IMG/VR virus record: IMGVR_UViG_3300032291_002681
Location: 1 to 64,000 of that record
Origin: a virus
Reading direction: 5' to 3' (one strand)
Length of the DNA: 64,000 bases
Below are positions 2,770 to 64,000 of the stretch, one piece after another. The notes below the pieces were generated by a model. It worked only from the letters and a program-made list of their open reading frames with translations, was not told the DNA's origin and did no database searches. The translations under genes were made by a program, and so were the position numbers. Numbering within the stretch: the first letter of the stretch is position 1; every line of letters begins with the position of its first letter.

Positions 2770-2794
2770 AAAAGAAAATAAAAAATAAAAAGAA

Positions 2795-3739
2795 ATGGCA
2801 GAAGTTTTTGTACCCTTAAATCGGTTTCAGTCAGTTGTAACAGGACTGACTGGTGAACCCGATGAAATCTACACAACACCAGCGGGTGTATCATCGATTG
2901 TGTTATCTTGTCAAATTACAAATAATAGTTTGATAACACAACCTGTGACAATATTTGTAACATCGAATAAAGAAATACCTGTGCCACAGTTTGGAGATAT
3001 TTTTAGTGGTAGTAATTTCATTAGTGCTTCCGCCGGTCCTTTTGCTGTCAATGGAATTGAAAATTTGGGTAGATTTAGTGGTAGTTTTGCGAGTGCATCT
3101 TTATTACTTAATTCAAATAGACAATTTTTAAGAAAAGAAATAGCAGCATACACAAATAATCAAAATAGTTTATCGGAAACTCCGTTTGTTTTTATATCAG
3201 ATTATTTTGAACAAAACACATTAGATGATGTGGATGCAATTAAATATGATATTGTAAATAACACAACTATTAGAACAAATAAAGCAGCAAAAGCATACTT
3301 TGATAAAAATGGTAGAAGTCTTATAGATACAACGGAATATTCAGCATCATTATTTGCATTAGATTATTTAAAAATATTATCTAATCAAATTATAAAAAAT
3401 CAATCAACAACTGGTTCTTCGGATTCGCCATTATTATTTCAAAGTGGAGTAACTCAATCGGTATTAACTAATTTTAATAACGGAACTGTAGCTGGAATTT
3501 CCGCATCAATATATGTTGTAAATTCTTTAGTGGATGTAATTAAGGAAACTATTGAAGCTCCTGTGTTTACTGAACAAGAAGCTGTAAGATTGGTTACAAA
3601 TGTAACAATACCACCAGCGGATTCTCTTTCACCAGTAGTTTCTGGTAAATTAGTGTTAGAAGAAACATACGGATTTATCGTTTCGGGCTCAACTGAATTA
3701 ACCGTAGTTCTTTCTTTGCTTGAAAGTGCTAATGAATAA
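2795..3739 (+). CDS. Structural adaptor protein (small beta-rich domain) with a ~200 aa insertion
   Basis: The N-terminal (EIYTTPAGVSSIVLSCQITN) and C-terminal (IPPADSL...GKLVLEETY...LSLLE) segments match the 110 aa paralog at 16854. The insert looks like a Cys-less copy of the upstream repeat. Confidence 0.6.
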   Translation: MAEVFVPLNRFQSVVTGLTGEPDEIYTTPAGVSSIVLSCQITNNSLITQPVTIFVTSNKEIPVPQFGDIFSGSNFISASAGPFAVNGIENLGRFSGSFASASLLLNSNRQFLRKEIAAYTNNQNSLSETPFVFISDYFEQNTLDDVDAIKYDIVNNTTIRTNKAAKAYFDKNGRSLIDTTEYSASLFALDYLKILSNQIIKNQSTTGSSDSPLLFQSGVTQSVLTNFNNGTVAGISASIYVVNSLVDVIKETIEAPVFTEQEAVRLVTNVTIPPADSLSPVVSGKLVLEETYGFIVSGSTELTVVLSLLESANE

Positions 3740-3807
3740 GTGATATTATCTTTAGGTAATATTTATAAGGGATTCATTATATTTATAAAAAAGCTGGAAA
3801 GTAAAGA

Positions 3808-6800
3808 ATGGCAATTAGTAATCTATTAACAGGAAGGGTAAGAGTAGTTTCACCTAAAAATGTAACACAGGACAGGTATCAATTTATTGATTTATCACAA
3901 GTTGAACCAAATTTAGGTGTTCCAAATTTTTCGGCATCACTTTCAGGTTCTCCAGCTATTGTAGTTTCGGATGACCAGGGTAATAGAGGATTTGTAAGAA
4001 GTTTAGATTTAGATAGAGCAACTGGAGCATTTACTGGTTCATTTACTGGTTCATTTACTGGTTCTTATTATGGAGACGGTAGAGATTTATTTAATCTACC
4101 TGCCGCAAGATTTATATCAAGTGGTTCGGCAACTGCATCTTTTGTAGAAGGGAATTTATTAATTAATACGAACACTAGAGTTCAAGGTGACCTTTATGTC
4201 GATGATACAATTTATGCGGAAAGTATAATAGTATCTTATATATCATCATCGGTAATTTATTCTTCTGGTTCAAATATATTTGGAGATAATTATACTGATA
4301 GACAACAATTTACAGGATCTGTATTAGTTAGTTCATCTATTATTGTAAATGATATTACCGCATCACAATCTATCACTGGTTCATTTACCGGTTCTTTTTT
4401 TGGTGATGGTAGAGATATATTTAATTTACCACAAGCTACAAGATTAGTAACCGGTTCGGTAACCGCATCAGTAACACCTGAAGATGGATTTAAAGTAGTT
4501 TCAATTGTAAGTGGTTCTCAATTTACTGGTTCTCTTTTTGTAAGTGGGAATATTACTATACCATCTGGTAGTGGTTTTTTTAGTGGTAGTGGTGAAGGAT
4601 TATTTAACATACCACTTTCAGCACTTAATATAGATTCATTAGTAGCTAGTAGAATTGCAAGTGGTAGTGTTACTGCATCAGTTTCACCAACTGAAGGATT
4701 TAAAGTATTATCAGTCGCAAGTGGGTCTACTTTTACTGGTTCTCTTTTTGTAAGTGGAAATGTTGTAATTCCATCTGGTAGTGGATTCTTTAGTGGTAGT
4801 GGTGAAGGATTATTTAATATTCCATTATCGGCACTTAATATCGATTCATTAGAATCAACTTTAATATCAAGTGGTAGTATAACTGCGTCTGTATCTCCTG
4901 TATTTGGATTTAAAGTGCAATCACAAGAAAGTGGTTCTCAATTTAGTGGTTCCGTTAATATTAGTGGTAGTTTATTCGTATCACCATTTAGTGGCTCTTT
5001 ACAATTAGCATCTGGTTCAAATTATTATGGTGAGGGCCAATTCTTAAGAAACATACCTCGTTCAGCATTAACCGAAGACGCATTAATATCTACCGAAATA
5101 AAATCAGGTTCAATAACCGCATCAGTTTCACCTGTATTTGGATTTAAAGTAGAAACACCATTTACTGGTTCTCAATTTGGTTCTCAATTTACGGGAAGTA
5201 TTGATGTAAGTGGTAGTGTTAAAGCATTTGCATTTATAGGAGATGGTTCTCAATTAACAAATGTACAAGCAGCAGCTGCACCAAGAATAGAATCTGGTTC
5301 TGTAACTGCTTCGGTATCACCTAATTTTGGATTCCGTGTAGAATCGCAAATAAGTGGTTCTGAATTTACTGGTTCAATTGATGTGAGTGGAAGTATATTC
5401 ATACCATCCGGTAGTGGTGTATTTAGTGGTAGTGGTGCGGGTTTATTTGATATACCTCGTTCGGCACTTACTCCTGACGCATTATTATCAAACTTAATAG
5501 CAAGTGGTAGTGTTACCGCGTCTGTAACTCCTCAATTTGGATTCCGTGTGGAATCCAGAGTAAGTGGTTCAGAGTTTACAGGTTCAATTGATATTAGTGG
5601 AAGTGTATTTATACCAAGTGGTAGTGGTGTATTTAGTGGTAGTGGTGCGGGTTTATTTGATATACCTCGTTCAGCACTTACACCAGATGCACTTTTATCA
5701 AATTTAATAGCGAGTGGTTCAGTAACGGCATCTGTAACGCCTGATTTTGGATTTAGAATACAATCAATTGATAGTGGTTCTCAATTTACAGGTTCACTTT
5801 TTGTAAGTGGAGCTAGAGGTATTGAATTGGCATCGGGTTCATCTTATTCAGGTAGTGGTGCTAGATTGTTTAATATACCAGTAAATGCAATTGAAGATTT
5901 AGACCTCTCCAAAATTGGTAGTGGTTCGGTAACTGCATCAATAACTCCAAATAATGGATTTAGAGTAAATACATTTTCTACCTTTACCGGTAGTATGATT
6001 ATATCGGCATCTGCTACATATTTTGCAACCGAATCAATCAATCCAATATATAATGTAACTAATAATGGCAGTACATCGTATTCTTTTACCGGTGGAATTA
6101 TTGGTGATAATCCTACACTAACTTTAGTAAGAGGGGTAACTTATACATTTAATTTAAATGCAAGTGGGCATCCATTTTGGATAAAAACAATTCAATCCAC
6201 TGGTATTGTAAACGCATATAATACCGGTGTAACGAATAACGGTGATGATAATGGGGTAATAACATTTACACCACAAGTTGGTTCACCTAATACTCTATAT
6301 TATAATTGCCAACTTCATTTATCAATGGGTGGTATAATTAACATTATAGACGGGGTTTTACAAAAAACACCTGGAGTTGTTATTTCCGGAAGTTTAGATG
6401 TAAGTGAAGTTGTTAGAGCTAGAGAATTTACGGGTTCATTTTCAGCATCATTTATACAAGGTGATGGTGCTGGATTATTTAATATTCCTCGTTCTGCATT
6501 TACCGGAGATTCTTTTAGAATTGCTAGTGGTAGTATAACCGCATCAGTTTCACCTGTATTTGGATTTAAAGTAGAATCGGCTGAAGTTGGTTCTGAAATT
6601 TCTGGAAGTGTTAGAGTAAGTGGTTCGGTAATTGCATCAGCTGTAACCGCTGTATCAATGAGTGCACTTAATTTTAGTGGTTCATTTCAAGGAGATGGTA
6701 GTAGATTAACTAATATTGTTATTCCACCATTGGAGACTACACAAATAGCTAGTGGTTCGGTAACGGCATCAGCTGCACCTGATAAGGGATTTATAGTAAA

Positions 6801-52525: not shown

Positions 52526-52557
52526 TTTGGTGAACTCACTAAATTATCGTATATTTG
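52526..52557 (+). promoter_or_regulatory. Bacteroidota-type promoter
   Basis: TTTG at 52526, N20, TATATTTG at 52550. Confidence 0.8.
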
Positions 52558-53971: not shown

Positions 53972-53989
53972 CAATTAAAAACAAAAACT

Positions 53990-54169
53990 ATGGCACAAAC
54001 AAGTCAAGAATTATTCGAACAAATCAAAGGACATTTTACAACCTTTGAAACCGAACACAATGGAACTAAAAAAGTAAACAAATCAAGAGCTAGAAAAGCA
54101 ATTGGTGAGTTGAAAAAATTAGTAACTGCTTATAAGAAAGCTTCTACGGAAGAAGGAAAAGCGGCCTAA
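53990..54169 (+). CDS. Histone H1-like (Hc1-type) small basic protein, 59 aa, missing from the ORF track
   Basis: Translated by hand: MAQTSQELFEQIKGHFTTFETEHNGTKKVNKSRARKAIGELKKLVTAYKKASTEEGKAA; RARKAxxELKKL motif; A-rich leader. Confidence 0.75.
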   Translation: MAQTSQELFEQIKGHFTTFETEHNGTKKVNKSRARKAIGELKKLVTAYKKASTEEGKAA

Positions 54170-54170
54170 T

Positions 54171-54204
54171 AATGATAGGGGAGTCTTACGGCTCCCCATT
54201 CATT
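54171..54204 (+). terminator. GC-rich hairpin after the Hc1-like gene (weak U tract)
   Basis: AATGA-TA-GGGGAGTC-TTAC-GGCTCCCC-AT-TCATT. Confidence 0.5.
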
Positions 54205-54330
54205 ATGTTATAATAGACACTAATAGAAATAGACTAAAATATTAAAAAAATATTTGTAATTATAAAAGGTTTATGAGTATATATTGTATTTATATTCACC
54301 CCAAAGAACTTACAAAAATTAAATTACACT

Positions 54331-55344
54331 ATGAGCAAATTATTTACGGATAGAATCCCCTACAAACCATTTGAATACCCAGATTACTATAATGAGGGTT
54401 GGTTAAAACAAATGCAGGCGTTTTGGTTACATACCGAAATACCAATGCAGGGAGATGTGAAGGATTGGAATGAGAATTTAACAAAAGAGGAAAAGCACTT
54501 AGTAGGTAATATCCTTTTAGGATTTGCTCAAACCGAATGTGCGGTATCTGATTATTGGACTGGTATGGTTACTAAATGGTTTCCAAAGCATGAGATTAGA
54601 CAAATGGCAATGGCATTTGGTTCACAAGAAACAATTCATTCAGTTGCATATTCGTATTTAAATGAAACATTAGGATTAGATGATTTCGCAGGTTTCCTAC
54701 ATGATGAAACAATGAAGGAACGATTTGAGTTATTAACAAACACAACCGCAGATTGGTCACCTGAAGATTTAAGAACAAACCATCAGGCTAGAGTTGAGGT
54801 TGCTCGTTCACTTGCTATCTTTTCGGCATTTGCGGAAGGCGTGGCATTATATTCATCATTTGCTGTATTGTATTCATTCCAAATGAGAAACCTTTTAAAA
54901 GGAATTGGGCAACAAATGAAGTGGAGTGTTAGAGATGAATCCCTACACTCAAAAATGGGTTGTCAATTATTCAGGCACATGTGTGATGAATTTCCTGAAT
55001 TATTAGAAGAAGCTAAAGCAGATATCTACAAAGCAGCTGAAATGATTAGAGATTTAGAACACAAATTCATTGATAAAATATTTGAAATGGGTGATTTAGA
55101 AAATCTTAAAAAAGATGACCTAAAAGAATTCATTACAAAAAGAGTTAATGAAAAGTTAGGAGAATTAGGATATAACCCAATCAAAGGTGGTGATGATTAT
55201 TTTGAATTTGATGAAACAAAAGCATCGGAGTTGGATTGGTTTTATCATTTGACTGGAGGCGTAACTCATACTGATTTTTTTGCTATGAGACCTACTGATT
55301 ATTCCAAAGCAGGTGAAGGTGAAAATTGGGATAATATATTTTAA
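54331..55344 (+). CDS. nrdB: Class Ia ribonucleotide reductase, beta subunit
   Basis: FWLHTEI; QETIHSVAYS (iron ligands and radical Tyr); EGVALYSSF; RDESLH. Confidence 0.95.
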   Translation: MSKLFTDRIPYKPFEYPDYYNEGWLKQMQAFWLHTEIPMQGDVKDWNENLTKEEKHLVGNILLGFAQTECAVSDYWTGMVTKWFPKHEIRQMAMAFGSQETIHSVAYSYLNETLGLDDFAGFLHDETMKERFELLTNTTADWSPEDLRTNHQARVEVARSLAIFSAFAEGVALYSSFAVLYSFQMRNLLKGIGQQMKWSVRDESLHSKMGCQLFRHMCDEFPELLEEAKADIYKAAEMIRDLEHKFIDKIFEMGDLENLKKDDLKEFITKRVNEKLGELGYNPIKGGDDYFEFDETKASELDWFYHLTGGVTHTDFFAMRPTDYSKAGEGENWDNIF

Positions 55345-55353
55345 AAATAATTT

Positions 55354-57135
55354 ATGAAAAATTACGGAGAAGAAAATGGATGGGAAGTAGATGTTGATTT
55401 TCCATCTTGGGGTAATAATGAGATATATGTAAAAACTATATCCAAAACATATTTGCAAGCAGGAGAAAAACCAAAAGATGCATATTGGAGAGTTGCTACG
55501 GCAGTTGCTAAAAGGTTGGAGAAACCACAATTGGCAACAAAGTTCTTTGATTACATTTGGAAAGGATGGTTGTGTTTAGCAACACCAGTATTATCAAATA
55601 CAGGTACCGATAGAGGTTTACCAATTTCTTGTTTTGGTATTGATGTGGGCGATAGTATCTATGAGATTGGTTCTAAGAATTTAGAACTAATGTTGTTAGC
55701 AAAACATGGTGGTGGTGTTGGTATTGGTATCAATATGATTAGACCTGCGGGTTCTAAAATTACCGGCAATGGTACATCTGATGGTATTGTACCATTTGCA
55801 AAGATATACGATTCTACGATACTTGCAACGAATCAGGGAAGTGTTCGTAGAGGAGCAGCATCGGTAAACATTAAAATCGAACATAAAGATTTTGAAGATT
55901 TTTTAGAGATTAGAGAACCTAAAGGTGATGTGAATAGACAATCACTTAACTTACATCAATGTGTTGTAGTTAGTGATAGATTTATGAAGAAGCTAGAAGA
56001 AGGCGATTCTGAGGCTAGAAGAAAGTGGAGTAAGTTACTTCAGAAACGTAAAGCAACAGGCGAACCTTATATTATGTATAAGGGTAATGTAAACAAACAA
56101 AATCCTGAAATGTATAAGAAGAACGGATTAAAAGTTCACATGACTAATATTTGTTCTGAAATCGTTTTGCATACCGATGAACAACATTCATTTGTTTGTT
56201 GCTTAAGTTCTCTAAACTTAGCAAAGTACGATGAGTGGAAAGATACGGATTTAGTTTATACATCTACTATTTTCTTAGATGGTGTACTAGAAGAATTCTT
56301 ACAAAGAGCTAAGAATATGAAAGGATTTGAGAATTCAGTTCGTTCAGCAGAAAGAGGTAGAGCATTAGGTTTAGGTGTATTGGGATGGCATACTTATTTA
56401 CAACAAAAAGGATTACCATTTGAAGGATTACAAGCTCAATTTGAAACCCGTAAGATTTTCTCTCAATTAAAGATTGAATCTGAAAGAGCGAGTAGATGGT
56501 TAGCAACTGAATATGGTGAACCTCTGTGGTGTAAAGAAAGTGGATTTAGAAATACACACTTGAGAGCAGTAGCACCTACGGTATCAAACTCTAAGTTAAG
56601 TGGTAACGTAAGTAGTGGTATTGAACCTTGGGCAGCTAATGTATTTACCGAACAAACATCAAAAGGAACTTTTATTAGAAAAAATCCTGAATTAAAAAAG
56701 GTGTTAAAGAAAATTGGATTTGATACAAAAGAAACTTGGGATAAGATTTTAGCAGATGGTGGTTCGGTACAAGATTTACACTTCTTAGATGAGTGGTGTT
56801 TCTTAGATGGTAAATTAGTTGAGTGTAACGAAGTGACTGAAGAATCACACAAAGGTAGATGTAATTCAGTTAAAGATGTATTTAAAACATTTAAGGAAAT
56901 CAACCAATTAGATTTAGTAAGACAAGCTGGTGTAAGACAACAATACATTGACCAGGCAGTTTCTCTAAACTTAGCATTCCCTGCAACCGCAGAGCCAAAG
57001 TGGATTAATCAAATTCACATGGAAGCTTGGAAGCAAGGTGTTAAAACACTTTACTATATGAGAACTGAATCAGTATTGAGAGGTGATATAGCAGCAAAGG
57101 CAATGGATGAAACTTGTGTAAGTTGTGAAGGATAA
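55354..57135 (+). CDS. nrdA: Class Ia ribonucleotide reductase, alpha subunit (no ATP cone seen)
   Basis: LATPVLSN; PISCF; TNICSEI; CCLSSLNL; APTVSNS; YIDQAVSLN; KTLYYMR; C-terminal CVSCEG. Confidence 0.95.
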   Translation: MKNYGEENGWEVDVDFPSWGNNEIYVKTISKTYLQAGEKPKDAYWRVATAVAKRLEKPQLATKFFDYIWKGWLCLATPVLSNTGTDRGLPISCFGIDVGDSIYEIGSKNLELMLLAKHGGGVGIGINMIRPAGSKITGNGTSDGIVPFAKIYDSTILATNQGSVRRGAASVNIKIEHKDFEDFLEIREPKGDVNRQSLNLHQCVVVSDRFMKKLEEGDSEARRKWSKLLQKRKATGEPYIMYKGNVNKQNPEMYKKNGLKVHMTNICSEIVLHTDEQHSFVCCLSSLNLAKYDEWKDTDLVYTSTIFLDGVLEEFLQRAKNMKGFENSVRSAERGRALGLGVLGWHTYLQQKGLPFEGLQAQFETRKIFSQLKIESERASRWLATEYGEPLWCKESGFRNTHLRAVAPTVSNSKLSGNVSSGIEPWAANVFTEQTSKGTFIRKNPELKKVLKKIGFDTKETWDKILADGGSVQDLHFLDEWCFLDGKLVECNEVTEESHKGRCNSVKDVFKTFKEINQLDLVRQAGVRQQYIDQAVSLNLAFPATAEPKWINQIHMEAWKQGVKTLYYMRTESVLRGDIAAKAMDETCVSCEG

Positions 57136-57155: not shown

Positions 57156-57419
57156 ATGTTAGAAGTTAAAAGATTTTCGGCAGTATGGTGTGGACCGTGT
57201 AGAGCATTAGCACCTGTAATGGAAGGTATTAAAAATGAATATACCAATGTGGTATTTGAAACTATTGATGTGGATGTAGACCACGAACAAGCATCTCAAT
57301 TCGGGATACGTTCAGTACCAACTGTTGTATTTGTAAAAGATGGGGTTGAAGTTAATAGATTAGTGGGAGTAAATTCAAAATTAGCTTATGTTAATTCAAT
57401 AAATGAGCATTTAAAATAA
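57156..57419 (+). CDS. trxA: Thioredoxin
   Basis: WCGPC active site; IRSVPT. Confidence 0.95.
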   Translation: MLEVKRFSAVWCGPCRALAPVMEGIKNEYTNVVFETIDVDVDHEQASQFGIRSVPTVVFVKDGVEVNRLVGVNSKLAYVNSINEHLK

Positions 57420-57450
57420 TTGGTAATATCAAAAAGTTTTCGTAAATTTG
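57419..57450 (+). promoter_or_regulatory. Bacteroidota-type promoter of the AsnB-GNAT-MTase operon
   Basis: ATTG at 57419, N20, TAAATTTG at 57443; the ATG is 4 nt downstream. Confidence 0.65.
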
Positions 57451-57454
57451 TTAT

Positions 57455-58912
57455 ATGTGTGGAATCATAGGCGGTAATTGGTTTAGTTCGGAAGAACAAA
57501 CTCATACCCATTTAAATAAAATAATTCATAGGGGTAGAGATGCTTCCGAAGTGGATGTTGTAGATACTTTCTACATTGGACATAATCGTCTTTCAATACA
57601 AGACCTGTCATCAACTGCAAATCAACCAATGTGGAATGATGACAGGACAGTTTGTATTGTGTATAATGGTGAGCTATGGGAGAGTTCTCATACCGAAGAA
57701 CTAAAAAATAGTATCAAAACACCATTCAAAACGAAATCAGATACCGAAATAATCTTAAATGCATATTTGGATTATGGAACTGAATCATTCAAAGATTTGG
57801 ATGGTATGTTTTCGTTTGCAATAGTTGATAGTAAACTTAATAAAGTATTTGTTGTTAGAGATTATGTAGGAGAATTACCTTTGTGGTATGCAATTGATAA
57901 TGATAATAAATTAGTATTTTGTTCAGAAAAGAAAGGATTGCCTATTTCAGATTTATATGAGAAGCAAGTAAAGGCAATATATCCAGGTACATTTTTAGAA
58001 TACAATTACAAAACATTAGAACATACGATTAAAACATATTACAAACTTCCAACTGAAATAATAAACGATGATAGAGAAACTATCGTTAAGAATATTAGAA
58101 CAATGATGGAAGAAGCTGTAAAAGTTAAAATGGTATCGGATGTTCCTATTTGTACAATTTTAAGTGGTGGTATCGATTCGGTTATTACAACATACATACT
58201 TTCAAAAATCAAACCAGATATCCAAGCATTCGTTGTATCAATGGGTGATGGTGATACTAAAAATGATGATATAAAGTATGCAAGAATTGCAGCTAAAGAA
58301 TTTGGTGTAACACTACATGAAATTATTTTAACCGAACAAGATGTTGAAGATGCTATCAATGAAACTCTCTATGTGATTGAACAAAGTAGATGGCAAAATG
58401 TTGGTAGTGCAATTGCACAAATAGCATTATCTAAAAAGATAAATGAGCTAGGATTCAAAGTTGTATTTAGTGGTGACCTATCTGATGAAATTTGGGGGAG
58501 TTATGGACATATTCAAGCGTTTCATTGGAGACCTGAAGATTATGATAAGGCTAGAAGAAAATTGGTAGAGGATGTGCATAAAACGAACTTTTTAACAACA
58601 AATCAATCTATTATGTGGGGTGGAACCGTTGAGGTAAGAACTCCATATAGTTGGAGACCGTTTGTAGAATACACATTAAATATTCCACCATTATATCAGA
58701 AAGAAGGTGGGCACATGAAACCTCTATTAAGAGCTGCATTCAAAGGGGAGATTTCAGACGAACTATTATATAGACCAAAAGTTTACTTTGCAAAAGGATG
58801 TAGAACCGGTGATATGATGGAAGCCAAAAAAAATATTTTGAAATCTCAATTAAAATCACTATATTTGTATAAAGACGAAATAAACTTAAATAAATTCTTT
58901 CAATATGCTTAA
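57455..58912 (+). CDS. asnB: Asparagine synthetase B-like amidotransferase (Ntn glutaminase plus PP-loop synthetase)
   Basis: MCGI (Cys2 nucleophile); HRGRD; GHNRLSI; YNGEL; SDTE; LSGGIDS; SGDLSDEIWGSY; EVRTPY. Confidence 0.88.
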   Translation: MCGIIGGNWFSSEEQTHTHLNKIIHRGRDASEVDVVDTFYIGHNRLSIQDLSSTANQPMWNDDRTVCIVYNGELWESSHTEELKNSIKTPFKTKSDTEIILNAYLDYGTESFKDLDGMFSFAIVDSKLNKVFVVRDYVGELPLWYAIDNDNKLVFCSEKKGLPISDLYEKQVKAIYPGTFLEYNYKTLEHTIKTYYKLPTEIINDDRETIVKNIRTMMEEAVKVKMVSDVPICTILSGGIDSVITTYILSKIKPDIQAFVVSMGDGDTKNDDIKYARIAAKEFGVTLHEIILTEQDVEDAINETLYVIEQSRWQNVGSAIAQIALSKKINELGFKVVFSGDLSDEIWGSYGHIQAFHWRPEDYDKARRKLVEDVHKTNFLTTNQSIMWGGTVEVRTPYSWRPFVEYTLNIPPLYQKEGGHMKPLLRAAFKGEISDELLYRPKVYFAKGCRTGDMMEAKKNILKSQLKSLYLYKDEINLNKFFQYA

Positions 58913-59426
58913 TTTTGTAAAAGCCGAAAAAGGTACATCCGAAATGATAGAAGCCGTTAATCAAGCTTCAACCATCATTGATTTGTATCCTGAAATATTT
59001 CCACACTTATATAAACAAGGATTTAAGTTGGAAAAGTATATTGAAAAAGGTGGTATGATACTTCAGGATGGAGTTGTTATTACTTTTGGAAAATATAAAT
59101 CTCATGGTAGAATGAGTAAAAACGCTACCACTTATAAAAAGAAAGGTGATTACATTTTACATCAAATTGCAACTAATCATTCCAAATCAAACGCATCGAT
59201 AGAAGTTTTGAATAAGTTTGTAGAATATTGTAAAGAACAACATGCAGAAAACTTATTCTTAACTGTTAGAGCATTCAATTATAGAGCAGTACTTTTCTAT
59301 GAAAGATATGGATTCGTAAAAGATAGTGATATAACTTGGACTAGTAAAAAAGATGGAGTTATAAATGGGATTGTGTTTAGATTAAGATTGGTTGCAAATA
59401 AAAATATAGAAACAGTATGTATTTAG
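58905..59426 (+). CDS. GNAT-family acyltransferase
   Basis: YILHQIAT...LFLTVRAFNYRAVLFYERYGF (motif B); motif A is degenerate. Confidence 0.75.
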   Translation: MLNFVKAEKGTSEMIEAVNQASTIIDLYPEIFPHLYKQGFKLEKYIEKGGMILQDGVVITFGKYKSHGRMSKNATTYKKKGDYILHQIATNHSKSNASIEVLNKFVEYCKEQHAENLFLTVRAFNYRAVLFYERYGFVKDSDITWTSKKDGVINGIVFRLRLVANKNIETVCI

Positions 59427-60646
59427 AATATTTTGATAAATTCAAAGGAATGACTCCGTATCTTCACATAAATTCCGAAGAATGGAAACACATCAAACTT
59501 ACATTTGATGTTAATGATGTTAAAGAATCATTAGCAGAGGTAAGTATGACTTATGAGTTACCATACGCGGATATTAGCGAAGATGATGCAAGAAAAGAAT
59601 ATCTTGCACTTAAAGGCATTCGTTGGAATGAATTATTTACTGAAGGAGAATGGTTTCCGAGAAAAGCATCCGATTTCAGATATAGTTTAGATTTTCAAGG
59701 TAAACCACAATACATTCGTAGATTAAATACGGGTAACGATGCATCGAATCATTTCCAACAATCAAATCGTTGGAGTGTAGACGGTACCGTTTCACCTGGA
59801 CCAAAAAGAACTTGGGCAAGTAAAGAGTTTATGACAACTCTGATGGGAGGATTATATACTCTTAAATTTGATGAAGTTGGTAGAAACCAACTAAGAGTGT
59901 GTTTGAGTTTAAGAAAATATATTTGTTCACAATTTAAACCAAATGCTGCAAAAGTATTATACGATTTTTATGAAGCTAAAAACGTATTAGACATATCAGC
60001 GGGATGGGGTGATAGATTGTGTGGATTCTTTGCATCTGAATTCGGAGAACATTATGTAGGCATTGACCCTAGAAAAGAAAATCATCCAATCTACAATCAA
60101 CAGGCTGAATTTTATACTAAACACAATTCATTCTTTGAAACTGAAAAGAAAGCGGATTTTATAGAATCACCTGCCGAAGATGCGGATTTAACTCAATATA
60201 AAGACCACTTTGATATAGTATTTAGTTCACCTCCGTATTTCAATGTAGAACGATATTCATACGATGATACTCAAAGTTGGGTAAGATACAAAAATATAGA
60301 TGCATGGAATAAAGAATTCTTGCATAAAACAATTGCAAATGTATGGCCTACTTTGAAGAAAGGCGGTATATTGGCAGTTAATATTGCAGATGTATATGCA
60401 TCATCGAAAGGTGATGGTAAAGGCTATAAGGAAATTTGTAATCCAATGAATGATTTCATTCAAACATTAGGTGCAGAATACGAAGGGTGCTTGGGAATGG
60501 AAATGGCGAAAAGACCTGGTAGTGCTGGTGCAGCTTCTATTATAGAAGGGGATGAGGAAAGGTATAGTGAAGAAGCGTTAAAAAAGGCAGAAGAAGCGGG
60601 TGATAAAACATTTTGTGAACCTATCTGGATATGGAAGAAGTTATGA
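59417..60646 (+). CDS. Amino-(N6A/N4C) DNA methyltransferase-like protein 1
   Basis: SAM motif VLDISAGWGDRL...YVGIDP; catalytic SSPPYF. Confidence 0.8.
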   Translation: MYLEYFDKFKGMTPYLHINSEEWKHIKLTFDVNDVKESLAEVSMTYELPYADISEDDARKEYLALKGIRWNELFTEGEWFPRKASDFRYSLDFQGKPQYIRRLNTGNDASNHFQQSNRWSVDGTVSPGPKRTWASKEFMTTLMGGLYTLKFDEVGRNQLRVCLSLRKYICSQFKPNAAKVLYDFYEAKNVLDISAGWGDRLCGFFASEFGEHYVGIDPRKENHPIYNQQAEFYTKHNSFFETEKKADFIESPAEDADLTQYKDHFDIVFSSPPYFNVERYSYDDTQSWVRYKNIDAWNKEFLHKTIANVWPTLKKGGILAVNIADVYASSKGDGKGYKEICNPMNDFIQTLGAEYEGCLGMEMAKRPGSAGAASIIEGDEERYSEEALKKAEEAGDKTFCEPIWIWKKL

Positions 60647-61857
60647 TAAAAGAATATTTTAAAAAGTTTTATGGAATGGAACCGTATCTTCGTATTGAAA
60701 AAGACGAATGGCAGACTATTCTTAAAACTTATACAAAAGAAGAAATCATAGATGAACTTTCAGAAGTATTACACACATACCCACCACCAATTCCGAATAT
60801 TACGGAAGAAGATACTTTAGATGCTTATAAAAAACTAAAAGGTACTTGGTGGCCAGATATTTTGGTAGAAGGTAAATGGTTTCCACGCAATGAACGAGTA
60901 TCGAAATATCCATTAACTTACGATGGTTCTGAATTTTATTTTAGAAGAACTAATGTAGGTAATAATGCATCCAACCCATTTCACATAGAAAATCGTTGGA
61001 AGGTTGATTGGGTGAGAACGCCATCGGGTTGGAAAACTTGGCAAACGGTAGATGGTATTAAAACGATTGTGAGAGCATATTTTACTTTGGATAAAATGTT
61101 GTTAGATGTGAATTTGGAAACTTTGAAAATGGCAACAACATTAAGAAAGTATGTAGCATCACAATTTAAACCTGTTATAGCAAAAGCATTCTATGATAAA
61201 TTTCAGAGTGTTAATGTTATGGATTTTTCAGCAGGATGGGGTGACCGATTGGCTGGATTTTTTGCAGGAGAAACAACAAAATTTTATTTAGGTATAGACC
61301 CAAATAGTAGTAATCATCCTAACTACCAAAAACAAATTGAATTCTATAAAAAACATACAACATTTTTTGAAGAAGATAAAGATGCAAAAATGTTAGAAGC
61401 GGCAGCGGAAGATGTAGATTATTCGGAGTATGAAAACTTCTTTGATACAATCTTTACTTCACCGCCATATTTTAATACCGAAAGATATAGCTTTGATGAT
61501 ACTCAAAGTTGGATTAGGTATAAAAAGTTTGATGATTGGAACAAAGGGTTCTTTCATACAACTTTGGAAAAAATTATACCTACACTTAAAAAGGATGGTA
61601 TATTGGCAATCAATATTGCGGATGTATTTTCTGCACCTGATAAGGGGTATGTAGATATAGTCAATTCTATGAACGATTTCCTCCATTCTAAGGGGTTATC
61701 TTATAAAGGGTGTATTGGTATGGAAATGACAAAAAGACCCAACAGCGGAGGTGCTGGGATGGCGGTATCGGAGTATTATTCCGATGAATTGAAAGAAAAG
61801 GCGGAAGAAACGAAAAATCACGCATTTGGAGAACCAATTTGGATTTGGCAAAAATAA
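60643..61857 (+). CDS. Amino-DNA methyltransferase-like protein 2 (paralog of protein 1)
   Basis: VMDFSAGWGDRL...YLGIDP; TSPPYF. Start set at the ATGA overlap (MIKEYFKKF aligns with MYLEYFDKF); the listed start is 60631. Confidence 0.8.
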   Translation: MIKEYFKKFYGMEPYLRIEKDEWQTILKTYTKEEIIDELSEVLHTYPPPIPNITEEDTLDAYKKLKGTWWPDILVEGKWFPRNERVSKYPLTYDGSEFYFRRTNVGNNASNPFHIENRWKVDWVRTPSGWKTWQTVDGIKTIVRAYFTLDKMLLDVNLETLKMATTLRKYVASQFKPVIAKAFYDKFQSVNVMDFSAGWGDRLAGFFAGETTKFYLGIDPNSSNHPNYQKQIEFYKKHTTFFEEDKDAKMLEAAAEDVDYSEYENFFDTIFTSPPYFNTERYSFDDTQSWIRYKKFDDWNKGFFHTTLEKIIPTLKKDGILAINIADVFSAPDKGYVDIVNSMNDFLHSKGLSYKGCIGMEMTKRPNSGGAGMAVSEYYSDELKEKAEETKNHAFGEPIWIWQK

Positions 61858-61858
61858 A

Positions 61859-61890
61859 TTTGGTTTATTCAATAAAAAATCGTATATTTG
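61859..61890 (+). promoter_or_regulatory. Bacteroidota-type promoter
   Basis: TTTG at 61859, N20, TATATTTG at 61883. Confidence 0.8.
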
Positions 61891-61923
61891 TATTCACAAT
61901 TTAAAATTTAAACATAAACAAAC

Positions 61924-62643
61924 ATGAACAAAGCAAAACTTACAAGGTTCATCCAAAAGTACAGTTTGGGTGGGTTAGTAGAATCGGTAACATTGAAAGC
62001 AGGAGATAACAAATTAGTTACTCGTTTTATTTCAGATGACAAGACTGTATTAGGTGAAATTGAATTAGAAAAATTCACATTTAATTCTCCTGATTTAGGA
62101 GTGTACACAACATCTCAATTATCAAAACTACTTTCAGTAGTTGGTGAAGATATTGAATTGGATGTGCAAGAAATCGAAGGTAAAGCGGTAAACCTTTTCA
62201 TTAAGAGTGGTTCTACCAAAGTTCAATATCCATTGGCAGATTTGGCAGTTATTCCAAATGTACCGGATTTAAAAAAACTTCCAGAATTTGATATTGATAT
62301 CAATTTCGATGGTGCGTTTATTGACAAATTTATCAAAGCTAAAAACGCGTTGAGTGATGTAGATACTTTTACTGTGTTAAGTGAAAAAGGACAATTAAAA
62401 ATTGTACTAGGATATTCAAATATTAATTCAACTAGAGTTGATTTTGTAGTAAATGAATCACATAGTGGTGATGTAAAACCAATTTCATTCTCTGCTAAGT
62501 ATTTGAAAGAAATCTTAACCGCAAATAAAGAAGCAACTGCAGTTGTACTTAAAGTATCAACACAAGGTATTTCGCATGTTGAATTCAAAATTGATGATTT
62601 TACAGCAAAATACTTCTTAGTAGAACAACAATTATCAGCATAA
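61924..62643 (+). CDS. DNA polymerase sliding clamp (gp45/PCNA-like)
   Basis: 239 aa two-domain pattern (LGVYTTSQLSKLLSV...ISFSAKYLKEIL...VSTQGISHVEF...AKYFLV) in a replication context. Confidence 0.75.
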   Translation: MNKAKLTRFIQKYSLGGLVESVTLKAGDNKLVTRFISDDKTVLGEIELEKFTFNSPDLGVYTTSQLSKLLSVVGEDIELDVQEIEGKAVNLFIKSGSTKVQYPLADLAVIPNVPDLKKLPEFDIDINFDGAFIDKFIKAKNALSDVDTFTVLSEKGQLKIVLGYSNINSTRVDFVVNESHSGDVKPISFSAKYLKEILTANKEATAVVLKVSTQGISHVEFKIDDFTAKYFLVEQQLSA

Positions 62644-64000
62644 TGAGTTTTAACTATAAGAAAAAATATTTCTATGAAAAGAATGACTGGTTGTACGAAC
62701 CGGAAGTAAACTTATTATACGAAGATGTTCTCAAAATGCCATTCGCTGATTTTGAAAAGTGGGTGGCATTTTTCAGAGAACTTGCAGTAAGAGTTTGGAA
62801 TGAAACTGGCGCACCACCTCGTATCGGAGTAGACGAAGGCGAGATGATTGAGCAGTTTTCTAAACTACAAACTTACAAAGTAGAAAGGTTTGAAGAAAAA
62901 GATGACGATGGAAATGAAGTTATTTTTAATTTTAATAAGTTTGCAACACCAGTAAATCAATTCTTTCCTGCAATGTATAAGACTGGAATTGGTGGTTCGG
63001 CATACGATAAACCAAAACCATCTATATACGATGTATTTGCAGATGATACCTATTTGCCAGAATTTGTCAAACAAATGAGAAGATTGACAAGACAAGATGG
63101 TATGTATCGTTTTTCCAAAACCTTACATTTGGATAATCCAGAATTCCATAACTCGCACATTCAAAGTGGTAAGGAGTGGATTGAAAAATGGGCAGCTGGT
63201 AATAAAAAAGAAGGGTATGGGTTTTGTTTATCACAAGCGGATAGCAAAGTTCCATCACCACCAATTACCGCACAAGAAGTTAGGGACCTGTATAATGCCG
63301 GTATATTAAAGTATGAAAACATATCTTCATTAAAAACTGCCGATTGGGGTGAGAATATTGATAATTTAATTGATGTTCCAAAACAACCAATTCAGATTAA
63401 AATATATCCATTAGGACAGAGAATATTTCCTGAAGCAACTGCAGCATTTCGTATTGGTATGGGTACACAAGCGGTTGTAAACTTTCCACCACTTACTGCG
63501 AAGTATCTTTACAAAAGATTTACTGACCATATCAAAGAGCAAGATGTGATAAACATTTATGACCCATCTGCGGGTTGGGGCGGTAGAATATTAGGAGCAT
63601 TGAGTCTTGATGATAGAAATGTTCATTACATAGGAAATGACCCTAATACTGAAAACTACATTGAAGAAATTGGAAAAACTCGTTACGAATATCTTGCCGA
63701 ATTCTTTAACAATAAAGTACCTGGTGCGGCAAATCCTTTTTGGGGACACGCTAATACCTACGAAATATTTACAACGGGTTCAGAAGTTATTTCAGATGAT
63801 GAAAGATTCCAAAAATATAAGGGTAAATTAGATTTCGCATTTACTTCACCACCGTATTTTGATAGAGAAAGATATTCGGATGATGATACACAATCGTTTA
63901 AGAAATTCGGAAACTATGAAAGTTGGAGAGATGGGTTCTTAAGACCAACACTAACAACAATTTATGAATATCTTCGTAATGATAGATATGTTTGTTGGAA
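62643..64000 (+). CDS. Amino-DNA methyltransferase-like protein 3, 3'-truncated and missing from the ORF track
   Basis: ATG in a TAATG overlap with the clamp stop; frame is open to the window end (MSFNYKKKYFYEKND...NFPPLTAKYLY...IYDPSAGWGGRILG...YIGNDPN...FTSPPYFDRERYSDDDTQS...). Confidence 0.8.
   Translation, partial: MSFNYKKKYFYEKNDWLYEPEVNLLYEDVLKMPFADFEKWVAFFRELAVRVWNETGAPPRIGVDEGEMIEQFSKLQTYKVERFEEKDDDGNEVIFNFNKFATPVNQFFPAMYKTGIGGSAYDKPKPSIYDVFADDTYLPEFVKQMRRLTRQDGMYRFSKTLHLDNPEFHNSHIQSGKEWIEKWAAGNKKEGYGFCLSQADSKVPSPPITAQEVRDLYNAGILKYENISSLKTADWGENIDNLIDVPKQPIQIKIYPLGQRIFPEATAAFRIGMGTQAVVNFPPLTAKYLYKRFTDHIKEQDVINIYDPSAGWGGRILGALSLDDRNVHYIGNDPNTENYIEEIGKTRYEYLAEFFNNKVPGAANPFWGHANTYEIFTTGSEVISDDERFQKYKGKLDFAFTSPPYFDRERYSDDDTQSFKKFGNYESWRDGFLRPTLTTIYEYLRNDRYVCW

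What the first reader, a model, noticed from the sequence alone, without database searches (positions are those of the whole stretch)
57419..64000. Candidate new DNA hypermodification pathway: AsnB-like amidotransferase, GNAT and three paralogous amino-methyltransferases
Seen: a four-gene unit with its own promoter and overlapping stops/starts (asnB-like, GNAT, MTase 1, MTase 2), placed between nrdB-nrdA-trx and the sliding clamp, with MTase 3 directly after the clamp. The AsnB synthetase site is altered (SGDLSDEIWGSY versus the usual SGEGADELFGGY), the GNAT motif A is degenerate, and all three MTases share D(I/F/P)SAGWG(D/G)R, SPPYF and ERYSxDDTQS behind long N-terminal regions. Established: AsnB-fold enzymes amidate carboxylates via adenylation, also on non-Asp substrates; the GNAT-fold Mom protein hypermodifies adenine; SPPY enzymes alkylate exocyclic amines. 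Inference: not asparagine supply but sequential base modification, e.g. transfer of a methyl, carboxyalkyl or aminopropyl group from SAM or a SAM derivative, followed by amidation and acylation, to evade restriction.
Basis: partly seen in the sequence, partly recalled or inferred. Interest (0 to 1): 0.85.

Follow-up and report, generated by a model that had tools for sequence, protein, structure and literature searches.

The report
Phage amidotransferase-acetyltransferase-methyltransferase DNA modification cassette
An uncultured freshwater giant phage carries, inside its DNA-replication genes, a tightly linked set of enzymes (an asparagine-synthetase-like amidotransferase, a small acetyltransferase and three virus-specific methyltransferase-like proteins) that most likely puts an undescribed amide-bearing decoration on its DNA bases; no chemistry has been measured.

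Summary

The reading is partly supported.
- **Linkage in this lineage.** In 42 of 42 related viral contigs with enough sequence, the AsnB-like gene, the GNAT gene and methyltransferase paralogue MT1 are contiguous. This holds through at least six flank arrangements.
- **Linkage in divergent phages.** There, two other AsnB-like subtypes also sit beside a member of this methyltransferase family.
- **Gene fusions.** Elsewhere the family's catalytic domain is fused to a GNAT, once with an ATP-grasp ligase as well.
- **AsnB-like enzyme.** It keeps its glutaminase and ATP sites. It has lost the residues tied to aspartate and ATP binding, and the altered site is conserved in 120 of 120 nearest clusters. 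A role in asparagine supply is therefore unlikely.
- **Methyltransferases.** They form a large, almost virus-only family. It has the gamma motif order, SPPY, a PF01555-like core and a conserved N-terminal domain with no structural match.

The DNA target and the chemical group are inferred, not shown. Plain m6A/m4C methylation is not excluded. No CmoA, C5-methyltransferase, TET or TAGT gene was found.

The closest known system is CmoA/CmoX/CmoY of phage S-B43. This scan had already flagged the same cassette in several other genomes, so this is a further member of an unstudied system.

The parts
57420..57450 (+). Bacteroidota-type promoter-like element (TTGG ... TAAATTTG) ending 4 nt before the AsnB-like start codon
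   Evidence: The same CGTA(A/T)ATTTGT box with an upstream TTTG/TTGG lies before dnaB (52550), the clamp (61883) and orf121 (66787).
57455..58912 (+). AsnB-like glutamine-dependent amidotransferase (485 aa): Ntn glutaminase domain plus PP-loop synthetase domain with an altered acceptor site
   Evidence: Pfam Asn_synthase 1.2e-46 and GATase_7 1.4e-30. TIGR01536 scores 285 bits against a cut-off of 267, but the AsnB equivalog NF006949 scores 284 against 499. Alignment to E. coli AsnB. The altered site is conserved in 120 of 120 nearest clusters.
58860..58867 (+). Second TAnnTTTG box inside the 3' end of the AsnB-like gene, 38 nt before the GNAT start; a possible internal promoter
   Evidence: Motif match only; not tested.
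58905..59426 (+). Small GNAT-fold protein (173 aa); overlaps the AsnB-like stop by 8 nt
   Evidence: Pfam Acetyltransf_1 at 20.7 bits (equal to the cut-off) and Acetyltransf_10 at E 1.2e-4. PHROG acetyltransferase families. PDB GNAT hits from E 1.5e-3. Ortholog alignment.
59417..60646 (+). MT1: SPPY methyltransferase-like paralogue, the one always linked to AsnB-GNAT; overlaps the GNAT stop by 10 nt
60631..61857 (+). MT2: sister paralogue of MT1 (50% identical) and the most conserved member of the family; overlaps the MT1 stop by 16 nt
61883..61890 (+). TAnnTTTG promoter-like box in the 66-nt gap before the clamp gene
61924..62643 (+). Sliding clamp (239 aa). An MT-family gene follows it directly in 44 of 58 loci (loci not de-duplicated).
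   Evidence: PHROG 947 processivity factor at 3.3e-5 and PCNA_C at 0.0029. Neighbour count.
62643..64000 (+). MT3: third paralogue (523 aa, about 300-aa N-terminal region). Its start overlaps the clamp stop by 1 nt. The gene ends at 64214, outside the window.

Best explanation
The AsnB-like amidotransferase, the GNAT-fold protein and MT1, probably together with MT2 and MT3, form one pathway. The phage uses it during replication to modify its own DNA bases beyond simple methylation.

Proposed order; every step is inferred:
1. An SPPY enzyme of a virus-specific family uses SAM to alkylate an exocyclic amino group of a base in DNA. The family has gamma-order motifs and a PF01555-like catalytic core. 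The group it installs carries a carboxylate.
2. The AsnB-like enzyme adenylates that carboxylate and converts it to a carboxamide with ammonia from glutamine.
3. The GNAT acylates an amine on the same adduct.

The adduct that uses all three enzymes without any extra cofactor gene is the 3-amino-3-carboxypropyl (acp) group of SAM. It has one carboxylate and one amine. A carboxymethyl group from carboxy-SAM supplied by the host is the alternative.

The unit is transcribed from a host-type (Bacteroidota-like) promoter as an overlapping, probably translationally coupled, operon. It lies between the nucleotide-supply genes and the clamp and polymerase genes.

Shown: the gene set, the motifs and the linkage. 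Inferred: the substrate, the group transferred, the order of steps and the biological purpose (evading host nucleases).
For: **1. Linkage.** asnB, GNAT and MT1 are contiguous (gaps -6 to +270 nt) in 42 of 42 IMG/VR loci that have at least 1.9 kb downstream. This holds through at least six flank arrangements and in lineages whose PolB is only 56-59% identical.

**2. Independent recurrence.** AsnB-like subtypes only 34-39% identical to this one also sit next to MT-family genes:
- TS-like-AsnB-PLP next to MT1-MT2 or MT3 (L019, L029-31, L052, L058).
- G006: MT3-TSlike-AsnB-PLP-HD, about 80 kb away from MT1-MT2.
- G009: AsnB-x-x-PLP-MT3-MT3.
Each of the three complete or near-complete relatives has exactly one AsnB-like gene, beside the MT block.

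**3. Fusions.**
- P0408/P0409: MT-family domain (DFSAGWG, SPPY) followed by a GNAT and a TTL-type ATP-grasp ligase.
- P0423 and P0421: MT-family domain followed by a GNAT.
- P0415: MT-family domain plus a 2OG oxygenase.

**4. The AsnB-like enzyme is intact but re-targeted.**
- Kept: Cys2, R50/N75/G76/E77/D99, the PP-loop SGGIDS and K450 (Met1 numbering of alignment A2).
- Changed: T322/T323/R325 to Q/N/G, E348 to D, and the C-terminal ~70 residues including C523 are absent. PMC5775275 cites Boehlein 1997 for the role of these residues.
- The altered motifs are kept in 120 of 120 nearest clusters.

**5. Precedent.** CmoY, an asparagine synthetase homologue, ligates glycine to 5-carboxymethylcytosine in DNA. 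A sister cluster with a glutaminase domain is predicted to make the amide (PMC12783734).

**6. DNA context of the MT family.**
- Only weak sequence matches in the PDB, all to N4C/N6A DNA methyltransferases.
- Weak Pfam N6_N4_Mtase and Eco57I hits.
- A fusion to a Dam-type D12 methyltransferase plus HTH (P0396).
- Neighbours in relatives include a GmrSD_N+HNH nuclease, TAGT, HD, MazG and MT-A70.
- The position beside the clamp, PolB and RFC is constant.

**7. A core with swappable accessories.** The accessories are AsnB+GNAT, or TS-like+AsnB+PLP, or PLP+GT+TAGT. This is the pattern of known handle-and-elaborate hypermodification systems.
Against: - No chemical or sequencing-signal data exist. 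Only assembled contigs of the public runs were available.
- All three MT paralogues keep a standard SAM motif I and SPPY, so plain methyl transfer remains the default chemistry for such enzymes.
- No CmoA, C5-methyltransferase, TET/JBP or TAGT gene was found in this contig or in three complete or near-complete relatives and one 75% complete relative. A carboxy-SAM route would therefore need the host.
- The MT proteins are acidic (pI about 5.3).
- The 175-aa N-terminal domain has no recognisable DNA-binding fold (best Z 3.5).
- The nearest solved folds of the catalytic domain are RNA amino-methyltransferases (TrmN, Trm11, Trm14, METTL5; Z about 15, in a flat list).
- Some fused relatives carry mRNA-capping or FtsJ domains, which points to RNA in eukaryotic giant viruses.
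- MT1-MT2 pairs exist with no AsnB or GNAT gene within the fetched flanks (L023, L032, L040); of their records only L032's incomplete one was searched for an AsnB-like gene, and L055's has one about 80 kb from MT1-MT2.
- Much of the linkage in the closest relatives is shared ancestry rather than independent events.
Confidence: 0.5

Rival explanations
1. MT1, MT2 and MT3 are ordinary orphan DNA methyltransferases that make m6A or m4C at different sites to block host restriction. The AsnB-like and GNAT proteins do something unrelated: asparagine supply, sugar or small-molecule amidation and acetylation for the phage's large glycosylation island, or another metabolic role. They are neighbours only by shared operon history.
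For: - Intact motif I and SPPY in all three paralogues.
- SPPY is kept in 119 of 120 close homologues and in 120 of 125 representatives at 50% identity.
- PF01555-like core.
- AsnB-like genes occur in glycosyltransferase islands in other phages (S-SCSM1).
- TIGR01536 is over its cut-off.
Against: - 42 of 42 contiguity through rearrangements.
- Recurrence with other AsnB-like subtypes.
- Fusions of the MT-family domain with a GNAT and with an ATP-grasp ligase.
- Loss of the AsnB residues tied to aspartate and ATP, conserved across the clade.
- MT2 is more conserved (66-70%) than PolB (30-57%) in the same loci, and the N-terminal domain is conserved. Both are unusual for sequence-specific orphan methylases.
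- Relatives carry canonical beta-class and MT-A70 methylases in addition.
Confidence: 0.2
2. The cassette modifies RNA rather than DNA: tRNA, rRNA or transcript 5' ends. The SPPY enzymes act like Trm11/TrmN/METTL5/PCIF1-type amino-methyltransferases.
For: - The best structural neighbours of the catalytic domain are RNA amino-methyltransferases.
- Distant fused relatives carry FtsJ and mRNA-capping-enzyme domains.
- Full-length structural homologues occur in Pithovirus, Satyrvirus and salmon gill poxvirus.
- The proteins are acidic and show no DNA-binding fold.
Against: - The Z-score list is flat (13-15.5) and generic for class I methyltransferases.
- The sequence-level matches are to DNA N4C/N6A methyltransferases.
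- There is a fusion to a Dam-type DNA methylase plus HTH.
- The genes sit constantly between clamp, polymerase and clamp loader, and near a GmrSD-like nuclease, TAGT, HD and MazG in relatives.
- Phage transcripts have no caps.
Confidence: 0.12
3. The enzymes act on free nucleotides before replication. They build a modified dNMP or dNTP that the phage PolB then incorporates.
For: - The cassette is embedded among nucleotide-metabolism genes: RNR, thioredoxin and dUTPase here; TS-like (CMP-hydroxymethylase-like), MazG, HD, phosphoribosyltransferase and phosphorylase-like genes in relatives.
- The sequence conservation and acidic pI are typical of small-molecule enzymes.
Against: - (S/N/D)PPY enzymes are known for polynucleotide or protein substrates, not free nucleotides (established knowledge, recalled).
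- The complete close relative G001 has only a canonical ThyA and no TS-like gene. Its HD homologue lies near ThyA, far from the MT block.
- No dedicated dNMP kinase or canonical-dNTP-clearing enzyme is linked to the cassette in this lineage.
Confidence: 0.08

Closest known systems
CmoA/CmoX/CmoY pathway of Synechococcus phage S-B43 (5-carboxymethylcytosine and its glycine amide; PMC12783734)
   Same: A SAM-family transferase of DNA-methyltransferase ancestry installs a carboxylate handle on a DNA base. An asparagine-synthetase-family, ATP-dependent enzyme then turns it into an amide. That paper also reports an untested sister cluster of ligases with a glutamine-hydrolysing domain, as seen here.
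   Different: - The transferases here are amino-methyltransferase-like (SPPY, gamma motif order), not C5-methyltransferase-like (SPPC plus R350).
- No CmoA or C5-methyltransferase gene is present in this contig or in complete relatives.
- A GNAT is an obligatory partner here.
- The authors state that they found no N6-adenine or N4-cytosine carboxymethyltransferase candidates.
- The relationship of this AsnB-like protein to CmoY or to the A0A7T0Q3R0 cluster was not tested, because those sequences were not at hand.
Mom of phage Mu (N6-carbamoylmethyl-adenine)
   Same: A GNAT-fold protein is involved in a DNA base modification that ends in a carboxamide on an exocyclic amine (recalled knowledge).
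   Different: Mom acts alone. Here the GNAT is one of three linked enzymes. No similarity to Mom beyond the GNAT fold was seen, and none was specifically tested.
Thymidine hypermodification pathways of phages M6, ViI and PaMx11 (PMC8989533)
   Same: Post-replicative elaboration of a handle on DNA by swappable accessory enzymes, including PLP enzymes and acetyltransferases. Relatives of this phage pair the MT family with TS-like and PLP-like genes.
   Different: No 5-hmdU kinase, aGPT-Pplase or TS-like hydroxymethylase gene occurs in this lineage. The core enzyme here is an SPPY methyltransferase-like protein.
SAM-dependent 3-amino-3-carboxypropyl chemistry and its capping: TYW2, Tsr3, MccD/MccE, diphthamide (Dph2/Dph6), and NAGGN synthesis (Ngg GNAT plus AsnO amidotransferase). 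All recalled knowledge.
   Same: Class I methyltransferase-fold enzymes can transfer the acp group of SAM. PP-loop or AsnB-type enzymes amidate the resulting, or an analogous, carboxylate. GNATs acetylate the amine. AsnO plus a GNAT cap both ends of an amino-acid moiety.
   Different: None of these acts on DNA. Fold similarity of MT2 to TYW2 (Z 13.1) and MccD (Foldseek E 5.7e-6) is no better than to many other methyltransferases.
Gamma-class and PF01555 N6-adenine/N4-cytosine DNA methyltransferases
   Same: Motif X-like SQFKP, motif I D-x-S-A-G-W-G, FD-x-I-F-T-SPPY, and the conserved stretch after motif IV.
   Different: - Pfam scores lie at or below the gathering cut-off (27.2, 24.9 and 18.0 against 26.7).
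- No C-terminal target-recognition domain.
- Instead there is a conserved 170-300-aa N-terminal domain with no structural match.
- The family is almost virus-restricted and is not found next to restriction enzymes.

Membership tests
Asparagine synthetase B (glutamine-hydrolysing, EC 6.3.5.4) | N-terminal Cys2 Ntn glutaminase site (R50, N75, G76, E77, D99 in Met1 numbering) | tested here: met
   Invariant in alignment A2 with E. coli AsnB. MCG start in 115 of 120 nearest clusters.
Asparagine synthetase B (glutamine-hydrolysing, EC 6.3.5.4) | PP-loop SGGxDS and K449/K450 | tested here: met
   LSGGIDS in 119 of 120 clusters. K450 is invariant.
Asparagine synthetase B (glutamine-hydrolysing, EC 6.3.5.4) | Residues tied to aspartate/ATP binding and aspartyl-AMP formation: T322, T323, R325, E348, C523 | tested here: not met
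   TT.R is replaced by QN(V/L)G. SGEGSDE is replaced by SGDLSDE. The C-terminal ~70 residues including C523 are absent. Residue roles as cited in PMC5775275.
Asparagine synthetase B (glutamine-hydrolysing, EC 6.3.5.4) | Curated model scores | tested here: inconclusive
   TIGR01536 scores 285.4 against a cut-off of 267.1 (met). NF006949 AsnB scores 284.5 against 499 (not met).
Asparagine synthetase B (glutamine-hydrolysing, EC 6.3.5.4) | Makes asparagine from aspartate | not testable with these tools
   Needs an enzyme assay or asnA asnB complementation.
CmoY-type DNA-base amide ligase system (CmoA/CmoX/CmoY) | AsnB-family synthetase domain encoded next to a DNA-methyltransferase-derived transferase | tested here: met
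   The transferase is of a different class.
CmoY-type DNA-base amide ligase system (CmoA/CmoX/CmoY) | Phage CmoA (carboxy-SAM synthase) and CmoX (C5-methyltransferase homologue with SPPC and R350) | tested here: not met
   No TIGR00740 or PF00145 match in G000. No TIGR00740 match in G001-G004.
CmoY-type DNA-base amide ligase system (CmoA/CmoX/CmoY) | Sequence membership in the CmoY or A0A7T0Q3R0 clusters | not tested
tblastn of the phage collection did not return phage S-B43.
N6-adenine/N4-cytosine DNA methyltransferases (PF01555 / gamma class) | SAM motif I and catalytic (S/N/D)PP(Y/F) motif IV | tested here: met
   D-x-S-A-G-W-G and SPPYF in MT1, MT2 and MT3. Family-wide counts.
N6-adenine/N4-cytosine DNA methyltransferases (PF01555 / gamma class) | Pfam gathering score | tested here: inconclusive
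   MT2 27.2, MT1 24.9 and MT3 18.0 against a cut-off of 26.7.
N6-adenine/N4-cytosine DNA methyltransferases (PF01555 / gamma class) | Recognisable target-recognition or DNA-binding domain | tested here: inconclusive
   The N-terminal 175 aa folds confidently (pLDDT 87) but has no match (best Z 3.5; no Foldseek match with E <= 0.001).
N6-adenine/N4-cytosine DNA methyltransferases (PF01555 / gamma class) | Methyl transfer to DNA | not testable with these tools
   Needs a biochemical assay.
GNAT acyl-CoA N-acyltransferases | GNAT fold signature and acyl-CoA pyrophosphate loop (Q/R-x-x-G-x-G/A) | tested here: inconclusive
   PF00583 scores 20.7 against a cut-off of 20.7. The loop reads HSKSNAS here but N-G-S-A or K-G-A-A in orthologues. 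Motif B N-x-x-A-x-x-FYER-x-GF is kept.
SAM-dependent acp transferases (TYW2/Tsr3/MccD type) | Specific structural or sequence kinship beyond the common class I methyltransferase fold | tested here: inconclusive
   TYW2 Z 13.1 at rank 43 and MccD Foldseek E 5.7e-6, both inside flat generic lists.

The most novel reading that the evidence does not exclude
MT1, and perhaps MT2 and MT3 at other sites or bases, is not a methyltransferase. It is a DNA 3-amino-3-carboxypropyl (acp) transferase that uses SAM as an amino-acid donor. The AsnB-like enzyme then amidates the alpha-carboxylate and the GNAT acetylates the alpha-amine. The result is a neutral, bulky N-(3-acetamido-3-carbamoylpropyl) base. This would be the first acp-type modification of DNA. 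It would also explain why this virus-specific transferase family travels with interchangeable enzymes that act on amino-acid moieties: AsnB-like, ATP-grasp, GNAT and PLP enzymes.
Probability: 0.15. Interest if true: 0.9.

Novelty: new variant of a known kind. Interest (0 to 1): 0.72.

Why it matters
**Scale and lack of study.**
- The MT family is large. One search found 2,336 relatives, and one search found 4,563 clusters at 50% identity.
- It is almost confined to viruses, and it is more conserved than the replicative polymerase of the same phages.
- No member has been studied. PHROG 12517 is listed as 'unknown function'.
- No paper in the searched library describes the cassette.

**If it makes a new DNA base.**
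- This would add a fourth route to phage DNA hypermodification, by elaborating an exocyclic amine. The known routes start from 5-hydroxymethyl-pyrimidine, 7-deazaguanine and carboxymethyl-cytosine.
- It would give an experimental handle on the untested glutamine-dependent branch of the CmoY family.
- It would offer new enzymes for site-directed DNA functionalisation.
- It would affect how lake and marine viromes are sequenced and how restriction and CRISPR defences see these abundant phages.

**If it is only methylation.** The finding is then an unusual but ordinary set of orphan methylases.

Tried and rejected
- **Close phage relatives.** Megablast of the region against GenBank phages found nothing. 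tblastn gave only remote hits.
- **MT2 against solved structures.** MT2 alone gave one chance hit, a chitinase, at E 0.039. Foldseek and VIA-align on the full model gave only flat, generic class I methyltransferase lists.
- **N-terminal domain.** Folded alone, it matched nothing. A protein-atlas search on it was also uninformative. The named-cluster atlas search only re-found the family.
- **Known hypermodification genes.** Searches for CmoA, C5-methyltransferase, TAGT and TET/JBP in this contig and in relatives G001-G004 found nothing.
- **S-B43 CmoY.** It was not retrievable. tblastn with E. coli AsnB did not return that phage.
- **Bacterial and archaeal genomes.** The scan returned only four loci, all MAG contigs. 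At least one is plainly phage. The scan used two narrow peptide patterns, so absence from cells is not shown.
- **Sequencing runs.** Lake-water metagenomes hold the region, but all runs are kept as assembled contigs. No raw-read or modification signal could be examined, and read laying was not used.
- **Tree building.** The maximum-likelihood tree did not finish in time, so FastTree was used instead.
- **Fused GNAT domains.** A test for specific kinship between the phage GNAT and the fused GNAT domains gave only generic GNAT-level similarity.
- **HTH fusions.** HTH domains in some fused homologues are probably remnants of homing endonucleases. I do not count them as evidence for DNA binding.
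- **Satyrvirus hit.** The name 'glutathione synthase' on a Satyrvirus structural homologue could not be checked at the sequence level. It is a lead only.

Full report
**What is there.**

The window is the first 64 kb of a 91-kb viral contig, estimated 42% complete. A 274-kb relative, G001, is rated complete.

All genes in the region lie on the + strand:

| Gene | Coordinates | Size |
|---|---|---|
| nrdB | 54331-55344 | |
| nrdA | 55354-57135 | |
| trx | 57156-57419 | |
| AsnB-like | 57455-58912 | 485 aa |
| GNAT | 58905-59426 | 173 aa |
| MT1 | 59417-60646 | 409 aa |
| MT2 | 60631-61857 | 408 aa |
| sliding clamp | 61924-62643 | |
| MT3 | 62643-64214 | 523 aa |
| PolB | 64223-66775 | |

Downstream come dUTPase and the clamp-loader genes.

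Within the four-gene unit, stops and starts overlap by 8, 10 and 16 nt. Clamp and MT3 overlap by 1 nt.

A -7 box TAAATTTG ends four bases before the AsnB-like ATG. Near-identical CGTATATTTGTA boxes, each with an upstream TTTG or TTGG, precede dnaB, the clamp and orf121. This is the Bacteroidota promoter pattern, so the unit has its own host-type promoter.

**The AsnB-like protein.**

It aligns with E. coli AsnB (PDB 1CT9) over residues 27-457 at E 2e-47. It passes TIGR01536 but reaches only 284 of the 499 bits required by the AsnB equivalog model.

- Conserved: the glutaminase residues, the PP-loop and K449/450.
- Changed: T322/T323/R325 are Q/N/G, E348 is D, and the C-terminal ~70 residues including C523 are missing.

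PMC5775275, citing Boehlein et al. 1997, assigns those residues to aspartate and ATP binding.

The changes are not decay. All 120 nearest protein clusters (73-99% identical) keep SGDLSDE(I/L)(W/F)GSY, 119 of them keep QN(V/L)G and LSGGIDS, and 115 begin with MCG (Cys2).

The enzyme therefore still hydrolyses glutamine and adenylates a carboxylate. That carboxylate is very probably not aspartate.

**The three MT-like proteins.**

They share a motif X-like SQFKP, motif I D-x-S-A-G-W-G-x-R, FD-x-x-F-(T/S)-SPPYF and ERYS-x-DDTQS. A tree of 91 homologues resolves three clean paralogue clades, with MT1 and MT2 as sisters.

- **Pfam.** N6_N4_Mtase is detected only around the cut-off.
- **Profile against the PDB.** A profile of the family finds only weak matches, to N4C/N6A DNA methyltransferases, over the stretch from SPPY onward. 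'ERYS..DDTQS' is thus the family's version of a known conserved segment.
- **Structure.** The AlphaFold model of MT2 is confident (pLDDT 94). The catalytic half resembles many class I methyltransferases. RNA amino-methyltransferases come first, but the list is flat (Z 13-15.5). The N-terminal 175 residues are conserved and fold confidently, but match nothing solved.
- **Size and range.** One search found 2,336 relatives and one search found 4,563 clusters at 50% identity. The family is almost purely viral.
- **Giant viruses.** Full-length structural homologues occur in Pithovirus, Satyrvirus and a fish poxvirus.
- **Conservation.** MT2 stays 66-70% identical in phages whose PolB is 30-57% identical.
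- **Homing endonucleases.** Several homologues carry LAGLIDADG or HNH homing-endonuclease domains. As recalled knowledge, such elements favour highly conserved genes.

**Are the genes functionally linked?**

- **Scan with the AsnB-like protein.** It returned 48 viral loci at 75-90% identity. In all 42 loci with enough downstream sequence, GNAT and MT1 follow directly (gaps -6 to +270 nt).
- **Varying flanks.** Six arrangements were seen:
  - trx-[unit]-MT2-clamp-MT3-PolB
  - PolB-clamp-RFC-[unit]-MT2
  - [unit]-clamp-MT3-PolB, without MT2
  - [unit]-other genes
  - [unit]-...-dUTPase
  - HD-[unit]-PolB
- **Uneven divergence.** PolB falls to 56% and GNAT to 48% identity while the AsnB-like protein stays at 89%.
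- **Core unit.** The invariant unit is therefore AsnB-like + GNAT + MT1.
- **Other AsnB-like subtypes.** Subtypes only 34-39% identical to this one also lie next to MT-family genes. They usually come with a TS-like protein (best PDB match CMP 5-hydroxymethylase, E 8e-5) and a PLP-fold protein. This holds even when they are 80 kb away from MT1-MT2.
- **Other neighbours of MT1-MT2 in relatives.** These are a GmrSD_N+HNH nuclease, a TET-associated-type glycosyltransferase, an HD protein, MazG and MT-A70.
- **Fusions.**
  - P0408/P0409: FtsJ, then MT-family domain, then GNAT, then a TTL-type ATP-grasp ligase.
  - P0423 and P0421: MT-family domain followed by GNAT.
  - P0415: MT-family domain plus a 2OG oxygenase.
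  - P0396: Dam-type methylase, HTH, then MT family.

Together these make a shared pathway for the MT family, a GNAT and an ATP-dependent amide-forming enzyme much more likely than chance neighbourhood.

**Most likely mechanism.**

The closest experimentally grounded model is CmoA/CmoX/CmoY of phage S-B43. There a methyltransferase-derived enzyme puts a carboxymethyl group on cytosine C5. An asparagine-synthetase homologue then ligates glycine to it on DNA. A sister group with a glutaminase domain is predicted to make the amide but was not obtained in soluble form. The authors found no N6-A or N4-C counterpart (PMC12783734).

Here the transferases are of the amino (SPPY) type. No CmoA or C5-methyltransferase gene exists in this contig, and no CmoA gene in the complete or near-complete relatives.

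I therefore propose that an SPPY enzyme installs a carboxylate-bearing alkyl group on an exocyclic amine of a DNA base. The AsnB-like enzyme then amidates it, and the GNAT acylates an amine of the same adduct.

The acp group of SAM is the simplest candidate. It needs no extra cofactor gene, and it offers both a carboxylate and an amine. That would also explain the recurring PLP, ATP-grasp and GNAT partners.

The precedents are recalled, not tested: TYW2, Tsr3, MccD/MccE, diphthamide, and the AsnO-Ngg pair.

None of the chemistry is shown. I put about 0.5 on the general reading (a joint pathway on DNA, going beyond methylation) and about 0.15 on the acp version.

**Rivals.**

- **Plain orphan methylases with unrelated AsnB and GNAT genes (0.2).** The linkage and fusion data weaken this, but standard motifs keep it alive.
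- **An RNA target (0.12).** It is suggested by the fold neighbours, by capping and FtsJ fusions in giant-virus relatives, by the acidic pI (5.3) and by the lack of a recognisable DNA-binding domain.
- **A nucleotide-level pathway (0.08).** It fits the nucleotide-metabolism surroundings, but not what is known of (S/N/D)PPY enzymes, nor the absence of a TS-like gene in the complete close relative.

**Context and novelty.**

The contig recurs in many lake-water metagenomes. The promoter type, and a related contig binned with a Flavobacteriales MAG, hint at a Bacteroidota host.

No paper in the searched library describes this cassette.

This scan had already flagged the same cassette in other genomes, and earlier follow-ups reached similar verdicts. 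I saw those notes only after my own analysis, and I do not count them as evidence.

Relative to the literature, this is a new variant of a known kind of system: phage DNA hypermodification by installing a handle and elaborating it.

These were complex prediction and the look-up of encoding contigs. The MT1-MT2 pairing and the genomic context of the fusion proteins therefore remain untested.

Noticed in passing
window 52550-52557, 57443-57450, 58860-58867, 61883-61890; contig 66787 (beyond the window): A repeated promoter-like element, TTTG/TTGG followed about 19-20 nt later by CGTA(T/A)ATTTGTA. It matches the Bacteroidota -33/-7 pattern and precedes dnaB, the AsnB-like gene, the GNAT gene (internal), the clamp and orf121. 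It suggests host-sigma early or middle transcription and a Bacteroidota host.
   Followed up: partly
L003-L006, L012-L014, L018 and others, about 2436-4292 in the locus: Very close relatives replace the class I nrdB-nrdA pair by a single 618-aa B12-type (class II-like) ribonucleotide reductase at the same position upstream of trx. This is a swap of RNR class between near-identical phages.
   Followed up: no
L019, L029-L031, L052, L058; L141 (G006); L142 (G009): Divergent relatives carry a TS-like (CMP-5-hydroxymethylase-like, 232 aa), AsnB-like (501 aa) and PLP-fold (279 aa) triad next to MT-family genes. It often comes with a conserved 543-aa protein that has no Pfam match, plus MazG, a phosphoribosyltransferase and a phosphorylase-like protein.
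   Followed up: partly
L035, L037, L038, L053 (upstream of MT1-MT2): MT3-like, PLP-like, GT1-like glycosyltransferase, TET-associated-type glycosyltransferase (PF20691), a 561-aa GmrSD_N+HNH nuclease and an HD protein are lined up before MT1-MT2. L036 has MT3, GNAT and a 2OG oxygenase (Asp_Arg_Hydrox).
   Followed up: partly
proteins P0143, P0156, P0189, P0234 (homologues of MT2): LAGLIDADG or HNH/NUMOD homing-endonuclease domains are joined to MT-family genes. This fits with these being highly conserved, probably essential phage genes.
   Followed up: no
BFVD hits to model m690eadc664bf: Full-length two-domain structural homologues of MT2 (TM 0.62-0.76) occur in Pithovirus, Satyrvirus (699 aa, named 'glutathione synthase'; name unverified) and salmon gill poxvirus. 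Distant fused forms carry mRNA-capping and FtsJ domains. The family spans phages and eukaryotic giant viruses.
   Followed up: partly
window 61924-62643 and related loci: An MT-family gene directly follows the sliding-clamp gene in 44 of 58 loci (MT3 in 41, MT1 in 3; loci not de-duplicated). This may reflect replication-coupled action or only inherited gene order.
   Followed up: partly
window 53972-54330: A 359-nt gap between dnaB and nrdB contains a GC-rich hairpin (54178-54197, GGGGAGTC...GGCTCCCC). In relative L019 a canonical beta-class N6_N4 DNA methyltransferase (368 aa) sits at this position.
   Followed up: no
contig 70480-75873 (L001:8480-13873), beyond the window: A GT4-type glycosyltransferase (460 aa) and a 725-aa collagen-repeat protein follow the replication module. 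They are part of the glycosylation island noted by another first-stage finding.
   Followed up: no
L044:4023-4571: An MT-A70-type adenine methyltransferase (182 aa) lies between two MT-family genes in a distant relative.
   Followed up: no
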